Positions 1,063 through 6,927 are shown, counted from the stretch's first letter. The stretch is 7,052 bases of DNA from a virus (IMGVR_UViG_2778261417_000006); one strand, 5' to 3'. Notes: a model not told the origin generated them from the letters alone. A program made the numbers and translations.

Positions 1063-1641
1063 ATGAATAAAAATATTGCCGTGACGGGCAAGGGGTACGC
1101 TCGTCCAGTGAAAAAATTCTGCGATATTCGTGATCTCGTCGTTCTGCGCTTTGATAGTGTGAACGTTCGTGTGGTGTATCTGAACGGCGATCCGTGGTTT
1201 GTTGCAAAAGATGTTTGTGCTGCGCTGGAACTAACCAATTCGCGTACGGCGTTGCAGATGCTTGATGATGATGAAAAGGGAGTAAATTTAACTTACACCC
1301 CAGGAGGAAATCAGAATATGAGAATTATCTCTGAGTCAGGTTTCTACAAACTAATAGCCCGCAGCCGCAAAGCAACGACGCCTGGCACATTTGCTCATCG
1401 TTTCAGTAACTGGGTATTCAGAAATGTGATACCAGGTATCAGAAAAACGGGGACTTATGGTATCCCGTGGGGTGCATTACAGGATTTTTCCCGCCGTAAA
1501 GAGCAATATCAAATAAGTGCCAGCGAGAAGGGGAGGGAGCTACAGGCATGTAAGCGCAAAAAGCGTGAGCTGGAGGAAGAAGAAAAAACGCTGATACGTG
1601 AATATCAGCCTGAGTTTTACTTTGGTAACCGCATTCAGTGA
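1063..1641 (+). CDS. Bro-N domain protein (phage antirepressor-like) with charged C-terminal tail
   Basis: 192 aa. Residues about 35-140 (VRVVYLNGDPWFVAKDVCAALELTNSRTALQMLDDDEKGV...TPGGNQNMRIISESGFYKLIARSRKATTPGTFAHRFSNWVFRNVIPGIRKTGTY) match the Bro-N consensus closely. The C-terminus is K/R/E-rich and looks coiled-coil-like. Confidence 0.85.
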   Translation: MNKNIAVTGKGYARPVKKFCDIRDLVVLRFDSVNVRVVYLNGDPWFVAKDVCAALELTNSRTALQMLDDDEKGVNLTYTPGGNQNMRIISESGFYKLIARSRKATTPGTFAHRFSNWVFRNVIPGIRKTGTYGIPWGALQDFSRRKEQYQISASEKGRELQACKRKKRELEEEEKTLIREYQPEFYFGNRIQ

Positions 1642-1650
1642 CAAAACAAA

Positions 1651-1671
1651 GGCGACCGCAAAAGGGTCGCC
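1651..1671 (-). terminator. Hairpin with T-run on the minus strand; candidate terminator for the leftward unit, convergent with the Bro-N gene
   Basis: GGCGACC (1651-1657), loop GCAAAAG, GGTCGCC (1665-1671). The + strand A-rich tract just upstream (1641-1650) reads as a U-run on the minus strand. Confidence 0.5.
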
Positions 1672-1737
1672 AGTGGGAACAAGGGAAAACAAAAGCATCA
1701 CCAACAATGCCACATTTGCGGCTGGTGGGCAATGTGA

Positions 1738-1917
1738 TCAGTCAGATTTGGTTCGTTCCAAGGTTTGCAACGAGAGCTTTTTCCTGTGCTCTTTAAGGAA
1801 TTTCTCAAGAGCAAACGAACAAGGTGCGAATCTTTCTGATTCATGTTCATGCGCTATATTTTTGCGTCGTCTCTTACGAGTTGGTGATGGTGTTTTGGTT
1901 GATTCTGTGTCGCTCAT
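1738..1917 (-). CDS. Hypothetical small basic protein, 59 aa (absent from the supplied ORF track)
   Basis: Hand translation of the minus strand gives MSDTESTKTPSPTRKRRRKNIAHEHESERFAPCSFALEKFLKEHRKKLSLQTLERTKSD-stop. It sits 57 bp downstream of the 101-aa minus-strand gene, has an AGGA about 8 nt upstream, and the minus-oriented hairpin lies about 70 bp beyond its stop. Confidence 0.4.
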   Translation of the reverse strand: MSDTESTKTPSPTRKRRRKNIAHEHESERFAPCSFALEKFLKEHRKKLSLQTLERTKSD

Positions 1918-1974
1918 GGTGCTGTCCTGTAAAGCAATGCGCCTGCGTTCCTCAAACTATGGCGCTGATATTGG

Positions 1975-2280
1975 CTATTCATGCTCTTTGACCTTGCGTC
2001 GCTGGAGTTCTTCACGCGCGACGGTGACGAGTTGCCCGATCTCCTCGGCTGCTTTGATGCCGATTTGTTCGACCTTAGCCAGGGCATCCAGTGACGACAC
2101 AAGGGGATTTTCTCCGCTGCCTTCTGCTTGGCGGCGGGCTATTTCTCCGCGCATGGCGGTTACGATAAATCCGGCATTGCTTTCACCGTCCAGCTTAACG
2201 GATTCCATCCCTTGCATAACATCTAGTGGGACTCTGACAGTTGTCAGTTGTGATTTTGCGTTTTTGTTAGCCGTTGCCAT
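1975..2280 (-). CDS. Hypothetical 101-aa protein; candidate DNA-binding regulator of the element (possibly ribbon-helix-helix-like)
   Basis: AGGAG SD 8 nt upstream of the ATG. It is transcribed divergently from the rightward operon across a palindromic operator region. The N-terminal segment TTVRVPLDVMQGMESVKL is compatible with a beta-strand plus helix RHH fold, but the family is not recognised with certainty. Confidence 0.5.
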   Translation of the reverse strand: MATANKNAKSQLTTVRVPLDVMQGMESVKLDGESNAGFIVTAMRGEIARRQAEGSGENPLVSSLDALAKVEQIGIKAAEEIGQLVTVAREELQRRKVKEHE

Positions 2281-2301
2281 TTCTGAAACTCCTAATCATC
2301 G

Positions 2302-2379
2302 GTGTGTTTCAGTATACACAAAAAAAGAAATACAAAAAGCCTTGACGTGTGTTTCATGCGCTCATAACATGAAACACAC
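2302..2379. promoter_or_regulatory. Divergent promoter/operator region
   Basis: Perfect inverted repeat GTGTGTTTCATG (2347-2358) / CATGAAACACAC (2368-2379) with a 9-bp spacer. A third half-site GTGTGTTTCA sits at 2302-2311. Candidate + promoter: -35 TTGACG (2342-2347), 17 bp, -10 TAACAT (2365-2370). Candidate minus promoter: -10 TATACT (complement of 2311-2316). Confidence 0.6.
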
Positions 2380-2470
2380 CGAAAGGATTGTTGAAATACA
2401 AAGAGCAACGCCCCGCAGTGCTGGGAACACATACGGGGCGTCTAACCAACAACGTAAACTAGGAGCCGTT

Positions 2471-2668
2471 ATGGTTGCTGTAAATCATATACCACACCTT
2501 GTACACACACAAACGGCCTTTGTGTGGCGTTTTCTGGCACTGAGTGCCGGAGAATCTCAAATCATCCACGTAACCGCCTGGACGGAACGCGAAGCGCGTA
2601 GCCGTTGCCCGTCCGGTTGTGTTGCTGTATTCGCTGCAAAAATCCGCCAGGGAGTGAGTCATGCTTAA
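2471..2668 (+). CDS. Hypothetical protein, 65 aa; likely first gene of the rightward operon
   Basis: AGGAG SD 5 nt upstream of ATG 2471. Its stop overlaps the start of the next ORF by 8 nt. It is the 3' end of the long 1598..2668 stop-free frame in the ORF track. Confidence 0.45.
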   Translation: MVAVNHIPHLVHTQTAFVWRFLALSAGESQIIHVTAWTEREARSRCPSGCVAVFAAKIRQGVSHA

Positions 2669-3276: not shown

Positions 3277-3576
3277 ATGGAAATGAAAAATTCTGGCTTT
3301 ATTGCCAGCGGCCCCGCTCGACCTGAATTTATGAACGGCGATATTTACCGCGATAAATACGGCGGCACGGTAACGATTAAAGGCGTGGCAGAACGGCGCA
3401 TCACTTACCGCCGTGAGGGGTATAGCTATGACTGCGTGATGCCTGTTTATCAGTTCCGGCGTGATTTTTCCCTGGTATATGCCGCACCCCGCAGTAAGCC
3501 CATCAGCAGGGAAAAAGCGTGGGGAAATATCCAGAAAATGAAAACCATGATTAACGGATTCAGAGGTAAAAAATGA
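3277..3576 (+). CDS. Hypothetical protein, 99 aa; immediately upstream of and overlapping the primase-like gene
   Basis: GAGGA SD; ATGA start/stop overlap with the 584-aa ORF. Confidence 0.55.
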   Translation: MEMKNSGFIASGPARPEFMNGDIYRDKYGGTVTIKGVAERRITYRREGYSYDCVMPVYQFRRDFSLVYAAPRSKPISREKAWGNIQKMKTMINGFRGKK

Positions 3577-5327
3577 AACTGGCACCGAACGTAAAACAGC
3601 AGTCACGCGGCATAAAACACAAAGGAACAGAAGTAATTATTTTTGCGGGTAGTGATGCCTGGGCACACGCGAAACAATGGCAGGAACATGATGCGCGTAT
3701 GGCCGGAGATAATGAGCCTCCTGTGTGGCTTGGGGAGCAGCAGCTATCCGAACTGGATAATCTGCAAATTGTGCCGGAAGGCCGAAAATCAGCACGCATA
3801 TACAGGGCCGGATATCTTGCGCCTGTAATGATAAAGGCGATTGGTCAGAAGCTGGCGGCAGCAGGCGTACAGGATGCAAATTTTTATCCTGAGGGTATGC
3901 ACGGCCAGGAGGTGCAGAACTGGCGCGAATATCTGGCCCGTGAACGCCAGAATCTTTCTGATGGTCTGGTCATTGAGCTTCCGGTAAAGCAAAAGGCGCA
4001 ACTTTCGCAGATGGCGGACAGTGAGCGCGCGCAGTTGCTTGCCGATCGCTTTGATGGCGTTTGCGTACATCCTGAAAGTGAAATCGTTCACGTATGGCGC
4101 GGCGGGGTATGGTGTCCGGTCAGCACAATGGAACTTAGCCGCGAAATGGTGGCGATCTATTCAGAGCACAGGGCCACTTTCAGCAAGCGCGTAATCAATA
4201 ACGCCGTGGAAGCGTTAAAAGTTATTGCCGAACCAATGGGCGAGCCGTCTGGCGATTTGCTGCCGTTCGCCAATGGTGCGCTTGACCTGAAAACGGGGGA
4301 ATTTTCCCCGCACACGCCGGAGAACTGGATCACCACGCACAACGGCATTGAGTACACGCCACCAGCACCAGGGGAGAACATCCGCGATAACGCGCCAAAC
4401 TTTCATAAATGGCTTGAGCACGCAGCCGGAAAAGACCCGCGCAAGATGATGCGTATATGTGCCGCGCTGTACATGATTATGGCGAACCGGTACGACTGGC
4501 AGATGTTTATTGAGGCCACCGGAGACGGCGGGAGCGGTAAAAGTACATTCACACACATAGCCAGCCTTCTGGCAGGGAAACAGAACACGGTAAGCGCTGA
4601 AATGACATCGCTTGATGATGCTGGTGGACGTGCGCAGGTTGTCGGGAGTCGTCTTATCGTCCTGGCTGACCAGCCGAAATATACAGGCGAAGGAACGGGC
4701 ATCAAGAAAATCACAGGCGGCGACCCCGTGGAAATTAACCCGAAATATGAAAAGCGTTTCACGGCGGTAATCAGGGCGGTGGTGCTGGCGACCAACAACA
4801 ACCCGATGATATTCACCGAACGGGCCGGAGGTGTGGCACGTCGTCGCGTGATTTTCCGTTTCGACAATATCGTCAGTGAGGCCGAAAAAGACAGGGAGCT
4901 ACCGGAAAAGATTGCGGCTGAAATCCCCGTTATTATCCGCCGATTGCTGGCGAACTTTACCGACCCTGAGAAGGCACGGGCTTTACTACTGGAACAGCGT
5001 GACGGTGATGAAGCACTGGCAATAAAGCAACAGACGGATCCGGTTATTGAGTTTTGCCAGTTCCTGAATTTTCTGGAGGAAGCGCGCGGCCTGATGATGG
5101 GTGGCGGTGGTGATTCAGTGAAGTACACGACCAGGAACAGCCTTTACCGCGTCTATCTGGCGTTTATGGCATACGCGGGCAGGAGCAAACCGCTAAACGT
5201 GGCTGAGTTCAGCAAGGCCATGAAGCCAGCGGCGAAAGTTTACGGGCATGAATATATTACGCGAAAAGTTAAGGGAGTAACGCAGACCAACGCAATTACA
5301 ACAGACGATTGCGACGCGTTTTTATAA
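3573..5327 (+). CDS. Replication protein: P4-family primase C-terminal domain / D5-like SF3 helicase
   Basis: 584 aa. Walker A GDGGSGKST is encoded at 4521-4547. The block LIVLADQP...KKITGGDPVEINPKYEKRFTAVIRAVVLATNNNPMIFTERAGGVARRRVIFRF resembles the phage/plasmid primase P4-family C-terminal signature. GAGG SD 6 nt upstream. Confidence 0.82.
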   Translation: MKLAPNVKQQSRGIKHKGTEVIIFAGSDAWAHAKQWQEHDARMAGDNEPPVWLGEQQLSELDNLQIVPEGRKSARIYRAGYLAPVMIKAIGQKLAAAGVQDANFYPEGMHGQEVQNWREYLARERQNLSDGLVIELPVKQKAQLSQMADSERAQLLADRFDGVCVHPESEIVHVWRGGVWCPVSTMELSREMVAIYSEHRATFSKRVINNAVEALKVIAEPMGEPSGDLLPFANGALDLKTGEFSPHTPENWITTHNGIEYTPPAPGENIRDNAPNFHKWLEHAAGKDPRKMMRICAALYMIMANRYDWQMFIEATGDGGSGKSTFTHIASLLAGKQNTVSAEMTSLDDAGGRAQVVGSRLIVLADQPKYTGEGTGIKKITGGDPVEINPKYEKRFTAVIRAVVLATNNNPMIFTERAGGVARRRVIFRFDNIVSEAEKDRELPEKIAAEIPVIIRRLLANFTDPEKARALLLEQRDGDEALAIKQQTDPVIEFCQFLNFLEEARGLMMGGGGDSVKYTTRNSLYRVYLAFMAYAGRSKPLNVAEFSKAMKPAAKVYGHEYITRKVKGVTQTNAITTDDCDAFL

Positions 5328-5340
5328 TTTTTTGTAAAAG

Positions 5341-5564
5341 CCATCTACCCCATCTACCTGAACGAAATAAACGCATATTATTCAACATGATAAGTGGGTA
5401 TAGGGCTAGGTAGAAGGCTAATAAAAGCTCTCTACCTCTTCTACCTGATTTTATCAGTTTCAGGTAGCAGGGTAGACGGCAGGTAGAGGAGTCAAAAAAG
5501 CTATCTACCCGCTGAAAGCGGCGCCATTACTGACATGATGAGCATTCGGGTAGATGGGTAGAGG
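5341..5564. repeat. Iteron cluster; candidate origin of replication
   Basis: Eleven copies of the pentamer CTACC/GGTAG in 224 bp. Tandem CCATCTACC x2 at 5341-5358 is mirrored by GGGTAGATGGGTAGAGG at 5548-5564. Other copies: 5409-5414, 5431-5436, 5440-5445, 5463-5467, 5471-5475, 5482-5486, 5504-5509. An AT-rich core lies at 5359-5394. Confidence 0.65.
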
Positions 5565-5613
5565 GGGGGAGGCACAACTAAAAACTTTTTAAACGAGGGG
5601 GGGGTGAAAATAA

Positions 5614-5928
5614 ATGCGCATACATAAAAATCACTTAACAAACATGCCAGCCGAAAACATGAATCAGGGGCGACAAATGACCAAAATTCGCAGAGACAGA
5701 ACACAGGCAAAATATAAAGCGTTAGACATGACAGAGCTTTCCTTAAAGGTGGCAATCAAAGCGATAGACCACCACACACGGGCAGGATACGCGAAGGAAC
5801 ATCCCGACCTGATAAGCGCATTCATGACCACAGCAGCGGCAAACTTTGCCACGCTGACAGAACGGGAGATTGCCGAAGCGGAACAGGTGACAACCATCAA
5901 TGTTAAAACCGGAGAGCAGACAGCATGA
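5614..5928 (+). CDS. Hypothetical protein (104 aa from ATG 5614; alternative start at 5677 gives 83 aa)
   Basis: Its stop overlaps the SSB start (ATGA). The 5677 start has an AGGGG SD at 6-nt spacing; the 5614 start follows a G8 tract. Confidence 0.55.
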   Translation: MRIHKNHLTNMPAENMNQGRQMTKIRRDRTQAKYKALDMTELSLKVAIKAIDHHTRAGYAKEHPDLISAFMTTAAANFATLTEREIAEAEQVTTINVKTGEQTA

Positions 5929-6347
5929 CAGCACAGATAGCGGCTTACGGGCGGCTGGTGGCTGACCCGCAGTTAAAGACCACCAGCAAAGGGACACAAA
6001 TGGCGATGGCGAGTATGGCGGTTCCCCTGCCGTGCAGCCAGGCAGATGACGGAACGGCGACGATGTGGTTATCCGTCCTGGCGTTTGGCAGACAGGCCGA
6101 CGCACTGGCAAAACACCACAAAGGCGAACTGGTGAGCGTGGCGGGTAACATGCAGGTAAGCCAGTGGACAGGCCAGAACGGCGAAACGCGGCGGGGCTGG
6201 CAGGTTATCGCAGACAGCGTAATCAGTGCGCGAACGGCGCGACCGGGCGGCAAAAAAGGCCAGCAGGGGCAGGCCACTGACGCACTGAACAGGGCAAAAC
6301 AACAGTCGGGGAATGATGATCCGTACGGCGATAATATACCGTTTTAA
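5925..6347 (+). CDS. ssb: Single-stranded DNA-binding protein (SSB family)
   Basis: 140 aa. The OB-fold region aligns with E. coli SSB by eye (GRL.ADP...W..V.AFG..A......KG..V...G......W). The C-terminus ends ...DDPYGDNIPF, resembling the conserved SSB tail DDDIPF. Confidence 0.85.
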   Translation: MTAQIAAYGRLVADPQLKTTSKGTQMAMASMAVPLPCSQADDGTATMWLSVLAFGRQADALAKHHKGELVSVAGNMQVSQWTGQNGETRRGWQVIADSVISARTARPGGKKGQQGQATDALNRAKQQSGNDDPYGDNIPF

Positions 6348-6364: not shown

Positions 6365-6393
6365 ATGCCGGAAAAAAATAGATTTTCCGGCAT
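6365..6393. terminator. Perfect 11-bp-arm hairpin downstream of ssb
   Basis: ATGCCGGAAAA (6365-6375), 7-nt loop, TTTTCCGGCAT (6383-6393). The U-run is on the minus-strand side; termination on the + strand is plausible but weaker. Confidence 0.5.
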
Positions 6394-6564
6394 GCTACAT
6401 AAATCCCGACCAAAGGAAGTAAATACATTAACACGAATTATCAGCACTGAAGTTGTTACGGCATATTTTATACAACATTGCACTTGGTTGCATGTGTTCG
6501 CATAGCAGACATCGGTAATAGAATATATTCACAATTATTTGTAATGAATGTAAAGAGGATGAGT

Positions 6565-6927
6565 ATGGTTGATTTATATTCGCCTACACAGCTTGTGCAG
6601 GTGGCTAATGCTGAAGATGTGCAAAAAAAATTAAATGCGTTGTTTACCAGTTTGTTTTTCACTCGCTCGGTAATGTTTGAATCGAGAGACATTATTCTTG
6701 ATACGATCGACGATCCAAATATCCCGATCGCGGCGTTTTGCTCTCCTATGGTGGGCAGTAAAGTTTCACGAGATGAGGGATACGAATCAAAAACAATTCG
6801 TCCAGGTTATATGAAGCCGAAAAGCAGCATTGATCCAAATAAGTTAGCTGTGCGCCCTGCTGGTGTGTCACCTGAGCAATACAATGCTTTTGGGGCGCGT
6901 AATATTAAAGTTAAACAGGCGAGGTAA
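6565..6927 (+). pseudogene. Lambda gpE-like major capsid protein, N-terminal about 120 codons only; truncated by IS1
   Basis: The translation from 6565 (MVDLYSPTQLVQVANAEDVQKKLNALFTSLFFTRS...FCSPMVGSKVSRDEGYESKTIRPGYMKPK...) resembles the lambda E N-terminus as I recall it (LFLRLFFRES...YVSPIVSGEVIRSRGG...TPGYVKPK). AAGAGG SD 6 nt upstream. The stop TAA (6925-6927) is supplied by the IS1 terminal sequence GGTAATGA. An alternative start at 6559 (MSMVDLY...) has no SD spacing. Confidence 0.65.

What the first reader, a model, noticed from the sequence alone, without database searches (positions are those of the whole stretch)
5614..6347. Element-encoded SSB with a host-like C-terminal tip, coupled to an unknown upstream ORF
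The SSB is short but keeps the C-terminal tip that host SSB uses to recruit replisome and repair proteins. This suggests the element can plug into, or compete for, host replication factors. The overlapping upstream ORF of unknown function may be an SSB partner.
Basis: partly seen in the sequence, partly recalled or inferred. Interest (0 to 1): 0.4.

Follow-up and report, generated by a model that had tools for sequence, protein, structure and literature searches.

The report
Satellite (PICI) SSB gene with small partner ORF
This is the ordinary single-stranded-DNA-binding protein gene of a known type of E. coli phage satellite (a PICI), translationally coupled to a small conserved protein of unknown function; the SSB is already catalogued, and only the small protein is an open question.

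Summary
Window 5925-6347 encodes a 140-aa bacterial-type SSB (Pfam SSB E=5.5e-16). It has a short linker and a C-terminal DDPYGDNIPF tip, against MDFDDDIPF in E. coli SSB. D-x-I-P-F is kept in about 107 of the 120 best homologues. A small ORF ends in an ATGA overlap with the SSB start. Its likely start is 5677, not 5614.

The window is a Gram-negative phage-inducible chromosomal island (PICI). In the identical E. coli chromosome it sits inside the portal gene of a lambdoid prophage, a published "helper-embedded PICI". The model PICI EcCICFT073 has the same pair directly after primase and ori. SSB is already listed in the literature as a PICI replication gene, and mobile-element SSBs with host-like tips have precedent.

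The small ORF belongs to phrog_1231, an uncharacterised helical-hairpin family with no Pfam or PDB relative. In enterobacterial PICIs it forms a mosaic cassette with SSB behind three unrelated replication initiators. Distant relatives lack any neighbouring SSB, and some PICI SSBs lack it. A dedicated SSB partner is therefore not supported.

Most likely role: accessory SSB supply for satellite replication that uses the tip to engage host replisome proteins. Low interest.

The parts
3573..5327 (+). P4-type primase/helicase, the satellite's replication initiator. It lies immediately upstream of the origin and the cassette.
   Evidence: Pfam D5_N E=1.1e-15, DUF5906 E=5.1e-10 and Pox_D5 E=3.5e-4. 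TIGR01613 'phage/plasmid primase, P4 family' 109 bits. phrog_864 DNA primase E=2e-175.
5335..5567 (.). Iteron field, the probable origin of replication. Repeated CCATCTACC / GGTAGA(N)GGGTAGA motifs occur in both orientations.
   Evidence: Direct and inverted repeat families. The position 3' of the initiator gene and the iteron organisation match the experimentally tested GN-PICI ori described in PMC6092414. Function in this element is inferred.
5677..5928 (+). Small ORF of 83 aa, a phrog_1231 family member of unknown function. The model is an alpha-helical hairpin. A Shine-Dalgarno-like AGGGG lies at 5666-5670.
   Evidence: phrog_1231 E=5e-49. No Pfam, NCBIfam, PADLOC or PDB sequence match. 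156 close homologues and 621 representatives by profile search. AF2 model pLDDT 86, helices 3-33 and 43-80. Start-site argument.
5911..5928 (+). Translational-coupling junction. GGAGAG (5911-5916) lies inside the 3' end of the small ORF. ATGA (5925-5928) holds the overlapping stop and start.
   Evidence: Read directly from the sequence. The same 4-nt overlap occurs in 55 of 58 complete related loci.
5925..6347 (+). SSB gene, 140 aa plus stop.
   Evidence: 100% identical DNA is annotated as a single-stranded DNA-binding protein, WP_000126640.1.
5937..6221 (+). OB-fold ssDNA-binding domain (residues 5-99).
   Evidence: Pfam SSB envelope. E. coli W54, F60 and W88 equivalents are conserved. The W40 equivalent is Cys/Ser and the H55 equivalent is Leu.
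6222..6314 (+). Short linker (residues 100-130), basic and Gln-rich with no PxxP motif. It varies in length between homologues (total lengths include 136, 140, 141 and 149 aa).
   Evidence: Alignments. Length distribution.
6315..6344 (+). C-terminal tip DDPYGDNIPF, the host-like SSB-Ct motif.
6365..6393 (.). Perfect 11-bp-stem hairpin 18 nt after the SSB stop. It marks the end of the cassette. Its role is unknown, and a T-run follows it only on the minus strand.
   Evidence: RNA fold -17.7 kcal/mol, z=-3.1.

Best explanation
The region is the replication-accessory cassette of a Gram-negative phage-inducible chromosomal island (PICI). The element is of the EcCICFT073 type. In the identical E. 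coli chromosome it is embedded in the portal gene of a lambdoid helper prophage.

Shown:
- The downstream gene is a bacterial-type OB-fold SSB with a short linker and a conserved D-x-I-P-F tip.
- It lies directly behind the satellite's primase-helicase and iteron origin.
- Together with the small upstream gene it forms a mosaic block that recurs behind three unrelated initiator families.

Inferred mechanism. After induction the satellite initiator melts the iteron origin and unwinds DNA. The satellite SSB is made from the same rightward transcript and coats the exposed ssDNA, at a time when helper and satellite replication together could strain the host SSB pool. Through its host-like tip it recruits host SSB-interacting proteins, so that host enzymes copy the satellite. 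Likely partners are the Pol III chi subunit and primosome or repair factors.

The SSB is accessory rather than essential, because pri plus ori alone sustain plasmid replication in E. coli (PMC6092414).

The small protein is co-translated with SSB through the ATGA overlap. It is most likely a helical, oligomerising accessory of the mobile-element replication or early module, acting with the initiator or origin or as a regulator. It is probably not a dedicated SSB-binding subunit. Its biochemical activity is unknown.
For: SSB identity.

Tip conserved while the OB domain is only 26% identical to host SSB.

Element identity and position:
- The window is 100% identical to NZ_CP138217.1. The genes are int, AlpA, BRO, Icd-like, DUF4222, primase, [iterons], small ORF, SSB, lambda-E-type capsid, decoration protein, AlpA and TerS. 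They lie between the two halves of a split portal gene.
- Iterons.
- HE-PICIs in lambdoid late genes, with SSB listed as a PICI replication gene co-localised with ori: PMC10111431.
- The ori lies 3' of rep, and pri-ori is sufficient for replication: PMC6092414.
- EcCICFT073 carries the same pair with a 4-nt overlap. The small ORF is 81% identical and the SSB 69% identical.

Cassette behaviour:
- About 140 of 144 related loci align over 5750-6250. Only 22 align over the primase end and ori, and 56 beyond the SSB stop.
- The pair follows P4-type primase, RepA-family helicase or DUF927 initiators, and precedes lambda-E-type or HK97-type capsid modules.
- The ATGA overlap is present in 55 of 58 complete loci.

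Distant relatives of the small ORF sit beside primase-helicases of other families without any SSB.
Against: - Nothing here tests ssDNA binding, tetramer formation or tip-partner binding.
- The linker is short, basic and not glycine-rich. A published study reports that the glycine-rich region of SSB is crucial for PriA stimulation (PMC9087215, seen by title and abstract only). Binding of a partner therefore need not mean productive stimulation.
- pri-ori alone replicates, so the benefit of an extra SSB is unproven and could lie outside replication.
- No published deletion or phenotype for these two genes turned up in the papers searched.
- For the small ORF, only about 7 of about 21 non-redundant distant loci show an adjacent primase-helicase. 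The 'replication accessory' assignment is therefore weak.
- The related-locus samples are dominated by near-identical E. coli sequences and are not independent.
Confidence: 0.6

Rival explanations
1. Decoy or interference role. The satellite SSB uses its host-like tip mainly to compete with host SSB, or with the helper, for SSB-interacting proteins such as ExoI, RecQ, PriA and chi. This would perturb host or helper DNA metabolism, for example slowing helper replication or protecting satellite ssDNA and concatemers from nucleases. Supporting satellite replication would be secondary.
For: The tip is conserved while the OB domain and linker are far from the host's. The short non-Gly linker may bind but not stimulate partners, if the finding of PMC9087215 carries over (title and abstract only). 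A phage SSB-like protein with an FDDDIPF tip is proposed to compete with or displace ExoI (bioRxiv 10.64898/2026.04.29.721553). PICIs are known to interfere with helpers (PMC6092414). pri-ori replicates without it.
Against: The gene is always placed with initiator and ori, not in the interference/packaging module downstream. The known EcCICFT073 interference factor is Rpp, which acts on packaging and left helper replication unaffected (PMC6739421). There is no direct evidence of competition.
Confidence: 0.15
2. Dedicated two-subunit unit. The small ORF is a specific SSB partner, such as a chaperone, loader, or regulator that masks the tip or the ssDNA-binding surface. It would be made in fixed stoichiometry through translational coupling.
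For: The 4-nt ATGA overlap is conserved in 55 of 58 complete loci. The two genes travel together as one mosaic block behind three different initiators. The enterobacterial subfamily has a near-invariant C-terminal segment TLTEREIAEAEQVTTINVK that the most distant relatives lack.
Against: The wider family has no SSB within 4 kb in 25 distant loci; a Pfam scan of neighbours in 20 of them agrees. The SSB clade occurs without it in L093, L119, L157 and L167. An unrelated 101-aa ORF can be inserted between the two. A paralogue with a similar C-terminal segment sits elsewhere in one element with no SSB called after it: it is the last annotated feature in the L038 gene order ('P4prim>FAM>SSB>SSB>PerC>FAM'; same copy at L175 4001-4255). 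Part of the 3' conservation is explained by the embedded Shine-Dalgarno and coupling signals. No interaction test could be run.
Confidence: 0.15
3. The small ORF is a regulator at the early/late boundary rather than a replication protein, and SSB merely shares its transcript.
For: In distant relatives it lies directly upstream of antiterminator Q (L020, L024) or of the capsid module (L019). In PICIs it sits between the ori and PerC/capsid genes. The small helical hairpin is compatible with an oligomeric adaptor.
Confidence: 0.1

Closest known systems
The SSB and preceding hypothetical gene of the model Gram-negative PICI EcCICFT073 (E. coli CFT073, C_RS06990 and C_RS06995)
   Same: The gene order is the same: DUF4222, a 584-aa primase, ori gap, small ORF, SSB. 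The 4-nt overlap is the same. The small ORF is 81% identical and the SSB 69% identical, with a DDPYGDDIPF tip. Capsid and head-decoration genes lie downstream in both.
   Different: EcCICFT073 is integrated next to phoQ in the chromosome, not inside a prophage gene. Its SSB linker differs (136 aa). A PerC gene follows its SSB, whereas here the capsid gene follows directly.
Helper-embedded PICIs (HE-PICIs; PMC10111431)
   Same: A roughly 10.7-kb unidirectional satellite with int, alpA, primase, SSB and a capsid gene. [quoted passage not shown] That paper puts 97% of HE-PICIs at five sites in lambda genes A, B, C and E, and lists SSB among the replication genes.
   Different: The type example 11capE sits in capsid gene E, whereas this copy splits the portal gene. 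I did not compare integrase clades or att sites.
E. coli chromosomal SSB (b4059)
   Same: The same domain plan of OB fold, flexible linker and acidic-hydrophobic tip. The last residues are D-N-I-P-F against D-D-I-P-F, with an aromatic residue 7 from the end (Y against F). W54, F60 and W88 equivalents are kept.
   Different: Only 26% identity over the OB domain. The W40 and H55 equivalents are replaced. The linker is about 30 residues against about 55, is basic rather than Gly/Pro/Gln-rich, and has no PxxP motif. Total length is 140 against 178 aa.
Phage- and plasmid-borne SSBs with host-like tips (for example BASEL phage Bas52_0087, FDDDIPF; Gram-positive temperate-phage SSBs)
   Same: A mobile element carries its own SSB ending in the host SSB-Ct motif. 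Short SSBs of similar length in Staphylococcus and Streptococcus phages are the nearest cultured-phage relatives, at 27-30% identity.
   Different: No cultured phage record has a close relative of either gene. On plasmids the family appears only sporadically: 52 records matched, 10 of them at 60% identity or more (one, at 97.9%, is 4.9 Mb long and so probably a chromosome), and 44 of the 52 are typed non-mobilizable. Bas52_0087 has two OB folds.
SCCmec replication operon (helicase Cch2, primase CcPol with the small protein MP, and an SSB; PMC7581432)
   Same: A mobile-element replication operon that combines an initiator/helicase, a small accessory protein and an SSB. This is an analogy only. 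The paper's title and abstract appeared; the component names come from my own recollection.
   Different: No sequence relationship was tested or expected. There the small protein partners the primase, not the SSB.

Membership tests
Bacterial-type SSB (Pfam PF00436 / TIGR00621) | OB-fold ssDNA-binding domain that matches the family profile above the curated cutoff | tested here: met
   PF00436 58.9 bits against 26. TIGR00621 59.8 bits against 53.95. 27 solved SSB chains at E<0.01.
Bacterial-type SSB (Pfam PF00436 / TIGR00621) | Conserved aromatic ssDNA-stacking residues (E. coli W40, W54, F60, W88) | tested here: inconclusive
   W54, F60 and W88 equivalents are conserved across the family. The W40 position is Cys/Ser. 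Three of four are kept. The effect on binding is unknown.
Bacterial-type SSB (Pfam PF00436 / TIGR00621) | Flexible linker followed by an acidic tip ending in Ile-Pro-Phe (SSB-Ct, DDDIPF) | tested here: met
   The sequence ends in ...DDPYGDNIPF. D-x-I-P-F is kept in about 107 of 120 homologues. The linker is short, about 30 aa.
Bacterial-type SSB (Pfam PF00436 / TIGR00621) | Homotetramer that binds ssDNA, and a tip that binds host SSB-interacting proteins | not testable with these tools
   This needs biochemistry. The H55 equivalent, a tetramer-interface residue in E. coli SSB, is Leu here.
Gram-negative PICI / helper-embedded PICI | Small (10-20 kb) unidirectional element with int, alpA and primase/rep, followed by an iteron ori | tested here: met
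   The element is about 10.7 kb (L001 9107-19796) with int, AlpA, primase and iterons, and genes co-oriented except one YlcI/YnfO gene. Criteria as given in PMC6092414 and PMC10111431.
Gram-negative PICI / helper-embedded PICI | [quoted passage not shown] | tested here: met
   Portal gene fragments lie at L001 8077-8910 and 19796-20578 and flank the element. Terminase lies upstream, and protease, decoration and capsid genes downstream. Att repeats were not mapped.
Gram-negative PICI / helper-embedded PICI | Induction, replication and packaging that depend on a helper phage | not testable with these tools
   Experimental.
phrog_1231 (small ORF) | Full-length match to the family profile and the shared core motif A-I-x-x-I-D ... 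G-Y-A-K-x-H-P-E-L-I-A-A-F-M-x-T-A-A | tested here: met
   E=5e-49 over 82 of 83 positions. All 45 diverse relatives hit the same PHROG. Motif shown. The family has no assigned function.
Conjugative-plasmid leading-region SSB (F Ssf type) | Close similarity to chromosomal SSB and a location in a plasmid leading region | tested here: not met
   Only 26% identical to E. coli SSB. The context is a satellite replication module. Of 52 matching plasmid records, only 2 are typed conjugative.

The most novel reading that the evidence does not exclude
The small helical-hairpin protein (phrog_1231, 621 or more representatives across Proteobacteria and beyond, with no Pfam or PDB relative) could be an unrecognised general accessory factor of mobile-element primase-helicase replicons. 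It might, for example, couple the element's initiator or origin to ssDNA handling. In enterobacterial satellites it would have become physically and translationally tied to a tip-bearing SSB, forming a portable 'SSB plus adaptor' cassette that lets any of three unrelated initiators hook into the host replisome.
Probability: 0.15. Interest if true: 0.5.

Novelty: already known. Interest (0 to 1): 0.2.

Why it matters
The SSB itself adds little. It is annotated in RefSeq. It occurs in about a third of complete E. coli genomes (1666 and 1742 of 5426 in two overlapping megablast searches), is present in the model PICI EcCICFT073, and is already classed as a PICI replication gene. Host-like tips on mobile-element SSBs have precedent.

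Two modest points are worth keeping.

1. In the papers I searched, nobody has tested what the PICI SSB contributes, given that pri-ori alone replicates. EcCICFT073 offers a ready genetic system for that test.
2. The small upstream gene belongs to a large, uncharacterised family tied to phage and satellite early or replication regions. The SSB-linked cassette behind three different initiators is a clean handle for finding its function.

Tried and rejected
- **Function of the small ORF by sequence.** Pfam, NCBIfam and PADLOC gave nothing. A PDB profile search gave only noise, E of 0.16 or worse.
- **Direct test of a small-ORF/SSB interaction.** I planned to fold the natural in-frame fusion P0121 with an alignment of both families. 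MAFFT placed the small-ORF sequences onto the SSB half in both attempts, so the alignment was unusable. The tool also returns no inter-domain error map.
- **Cultured phages.** No hit for the small ORF, and only 30% identity or less for the SSB.
- **Genome-wide context search.** The diverse alignment failed for lack of a conserved block. A narrower alignment gave only 8 loci. IMG/VR gave 80. P0250 gave nothing.
- **Defence-system reading.** Rejected, with no PADLOC match.
- **Known RNA genes in the window.** No Rfam family reached its gathering score.
- **Recent host-derived ssb copy.** Rejected at 26% OB-domain identity.
- **Conjugative-plasmid ssb.** Rejected on context and similarity.

Full report
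**What is at the coordinates.** The window has two co-oriented ORFs, at 5614-5928 and 5925-6347, that overlap in the sequence ATGA. The downstream ORF (140 aa) is a bacterial-type SSB. Pfam PF00436 scores E=5.5e-16 over residues 5-99. TIGR00621 scores above its curated cutoff. phrog_44 scores E=1e-39. Twenty-seven solved SSB chains match at E<0.01.

The protein ends in DDPYGDNIPF. The E. coli K-12 ssb gene, fetched for comparison, ends in PPMDFDDDIPF. The two proteins share only 26% identity over the OB domain, so this is not a recent copy of the host gene. Even so, D-x-I-P-F is nearly invariant among the 120 best homologues: N 55, D 20, G 19, E 11 and S 2 at position x, with the remainder mostly truncated or fused entries. 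The linker between OB fold and tip varies in sequence and length. The equivalents of E. coli W54, F60 and W88 are kept. W40 is replaced by Cys/Ser and H55 by Leu.

**Start of the upstream gene.** The 104-aa reading from 5614 is the longest ORF, but 5677 (83 aa) is the more likely start. RefSeq annotates it there. The 83-position PHROG profile aligns from residue 1 of that version. Lineages differ completely upstream of the conserved Met-Thr-Lys/Arg, and residue 2 of the extension varies freely as R, C, H, G or W. AGGGG lies 6 nt upstream of 5677.

**What the element is.** The window is 100% identical to a stretch of E. coli 20Y000092. There, a roughly 10.7-kb block splits the portal gene of a lambdoid prophage whose terminase, protease, decoration, capsid and tail genes flank it. 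The block carries these genes in order:
- integrase, AlpA, BRO, YlcI/YnfO (opposite strand), an Icd-like gene and small ORFs
- DUF4222 and a P4-type primase
- the small ORF and the SSB
- a lambda-E-type capsid gene, a head-decoration gene, a second AlpA-family gene, TerS and a further hypothetical gene

This is a published configuration, the helper-embedded PICI. That paper reports insertions concentrated in lambda genes A, B, C and E. It explicitly places 'Primase, SSB and DUF5906' in the PICI replication category, co-localised with the origin (PMC10111431).

Between the primase stop and the small ORF lies a dense field of GGTAGA-type iterons in both orientations (5335-5567). Gram-negative PICI origins have been mapped at this position, and pri plus ori was shown to drive plasmid replication (PMC6092414). 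The model PICI EcCICFT073 has the same order of DUF4222, 584-aa primase, gap, 85-aa ORF and 136-aa SSB. The 4-nt overlap is the same. The small ORF is 81% identical and the SSB 69% identical, with a DDPYGDDIPF tip. I found no functional analysis of either gene in the PICI papers I searched.

**How the two genes behave across related loci.** DNA similar to the pair occurs in about a third of complete E. coli genomes: 1666 and 1742 of 5426 in two overlapping megablast searches.

- In 60 IMG/VR loci of the enterobacterial subfamily, SSB follows the small ORF in all 58 that are not cut by a contig end. The ATGA overlap is present in 55 of them. Two, L064 and L065, carry a 312-nt insertion, as does the GTDB Shigella locus L007.
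- Over 140 loci, the pair follows a P4-type primase, a RepA-family helicase or a DUF927 primase-helicase. It precedes either lambda-E-type or HK97-type capsid modules.
- In a base-by-base comparison, about 140 of 144 loci align with the window over 5750-6250. Only 22 align over the primase 3' end and origin, and 56 beyond the SSB stop.

The two genes therefore form one mosaic cassette that recombines as a unit between satellite backbones. These samples are dominated by closely related E. coli sequences, and some contigs occur in both sets. The independent evidence is the variety of flanking modules, not the raw counts.

In 25 loci of distant relatives (Nitrosomonas, Achromobacter and uncultured viral contigs) a local jackhmmer search found no SSB within 4 kb. 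A Pfam scan of 85 neighbouring ORFs from 20 of those loci also showed no SSB among the 25 most frequent families listed. About seven of about 21 non-redundant loci place the gene next to a primase-helicase of yet other families: DUF927 with Toprim, VapE with Prim-Pol, DUF5906, and a family-A polymerase. Several place it just before antiterminator Q or a capsid module. Conversely, the PICI SSB clade occurs without the small ORF (L093, L119, L157, L167), and an unrelated 101-aa ORF can sit between the two (L094, L064, L065). The association is strong in one lineage but obligatory in neither direction.

**Interpretation.** The best-supported reading is that this SSB is an accessory of satellite replication. 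It is transcribed with the initiator and made where and when the satellite origin is unwound. It keeps the one short motif through which E. coli SSB docks its many partners (SSB-Ct hub, PMC10164576). The tip has been conserved against a background of OB-domain and linker divergence. That is what one expects if the protein must talk to host proteins such as the Pol III chi subunit or primosome factors.

This last step is inference. The short, basic, non-glycine-rich linker could alter partner stimulation (PMC9087215, title and abstract only). The sufficiency of pri-ori for replication shows that the SSB is not essential.

The competing 'decoy' reading has a recent parallel in a phage SSB-like protein with an FDDDIPF tip, proposed to interfere with ExoI. 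It cannot be excluded. The gene's constant placement in the replication module, rather than the interference/packaging module, speaks against it as the main role.

For the small ORF I favour a helical, oligomerising accessory of the mobile-element early or replication module that is co-translated with SSB. The evidence does not support a dedicated SSB partner, although the coupling and cassette behaviour keep that idea alive at low probability.

**Verdict.** The finding is real but ordinary. It is a known gene in a known class of satellite, annotated in RefSeq and noted in the PICI literature. The open item is the function of the phrog_1231 family and what an extra SSB buys a PICI. Both are directly testable in EcCICFT073.

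Noticed in passing
L001 8077-8910 and 19796-20578 (NZ_CP138217.1); the window lies inside the insert: The whole satellite is inserted in, and co-oriented with, the portal gene of a lambdoid prophage next to ompC. The helper's portal cannot be made until the satellite excises. This matches the published helper-embedded PICI configuration (PMC10111431).
   Followed up: partly
window 5335-5567: A dense iteron field, CCATCTACC / GGTAGA(N)GGGTAGA with at least 10 copies in both orientations, lies directly 3' of the primase gene. It is the probable satellite origin. Only 22 of 144 related loci share this segment, consistent with the origin co-varying with initiator type.
   Followed up: partly
window 6365-6393: A perfect 11-bp-stem hairpin (ATGCCGGAAAA / TTTTCCGGCAT) lies 18 nt after the SSB stop. 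RNA fold is -17.7 kcal/mol, z=-3.1. A T-run follows it only on the minus strand, so it looks like a terminator for antisense transcription or a plain structural boundary of the cassette.
   Followed up: partly
L094 3749-4054; also L064, L065, L007: In some PICIs a 101-aa ORF of unknown function (no PADLOC hit; other libraries not tested) is inserted between the small ORF and the SSB. In L094 it overlaps the small ORF by 4 nt and lies 9 nt upstream of the SSB start. In L110 it takes the place of the small ORF.
   Followed up: partly
P0121, P0217, P0140 (homologues): P0121 (220 aa) is an in-frame fusion of the small ORF and the SSB in a Logan assembly. P0217 is a deletion fusion. P0140 is an SSB whose tip is replaced by an unrelated C-terminus with a PF20441 match. 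These may be assembly or frameshift artefacts or rare natural variants.
   Followed up: no
L038 / L175 (IMGVR_UViG_2529293142_000032), second copy at L175 4001-4255: One satellite carries a second, diverged paralogue of the small ORF (P0245-like) a few kb downstream of the first, after PerC. No SSB follows it.
   Followed up: partly
window 1975-2280 (- strand) and 1598-2668 (+ strand): The only annotated minus-strand gene in this stretch is a YlcI/YnfO family gene (phrog_6522). It is overlapped by a 356-aa plus-strand ORF that is unannotated in RefSeq, so probably spurious. No Rfam family, including P4 CI/isrK-type RNAs, reached its gathering score anywhere in the window.
   Followed up: partly
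window 6478-6927 and L001 16166-17557: The satellite carries its own lambda-E-type major capsid and head-decoration genes, paralogous to those of the prophage it interrupts. In the published EcCICFT073 work the equivalent genes (c1499, c1500) were deleted to test for a role in helper interference. [quoted passage not shown]
   Followed up: no
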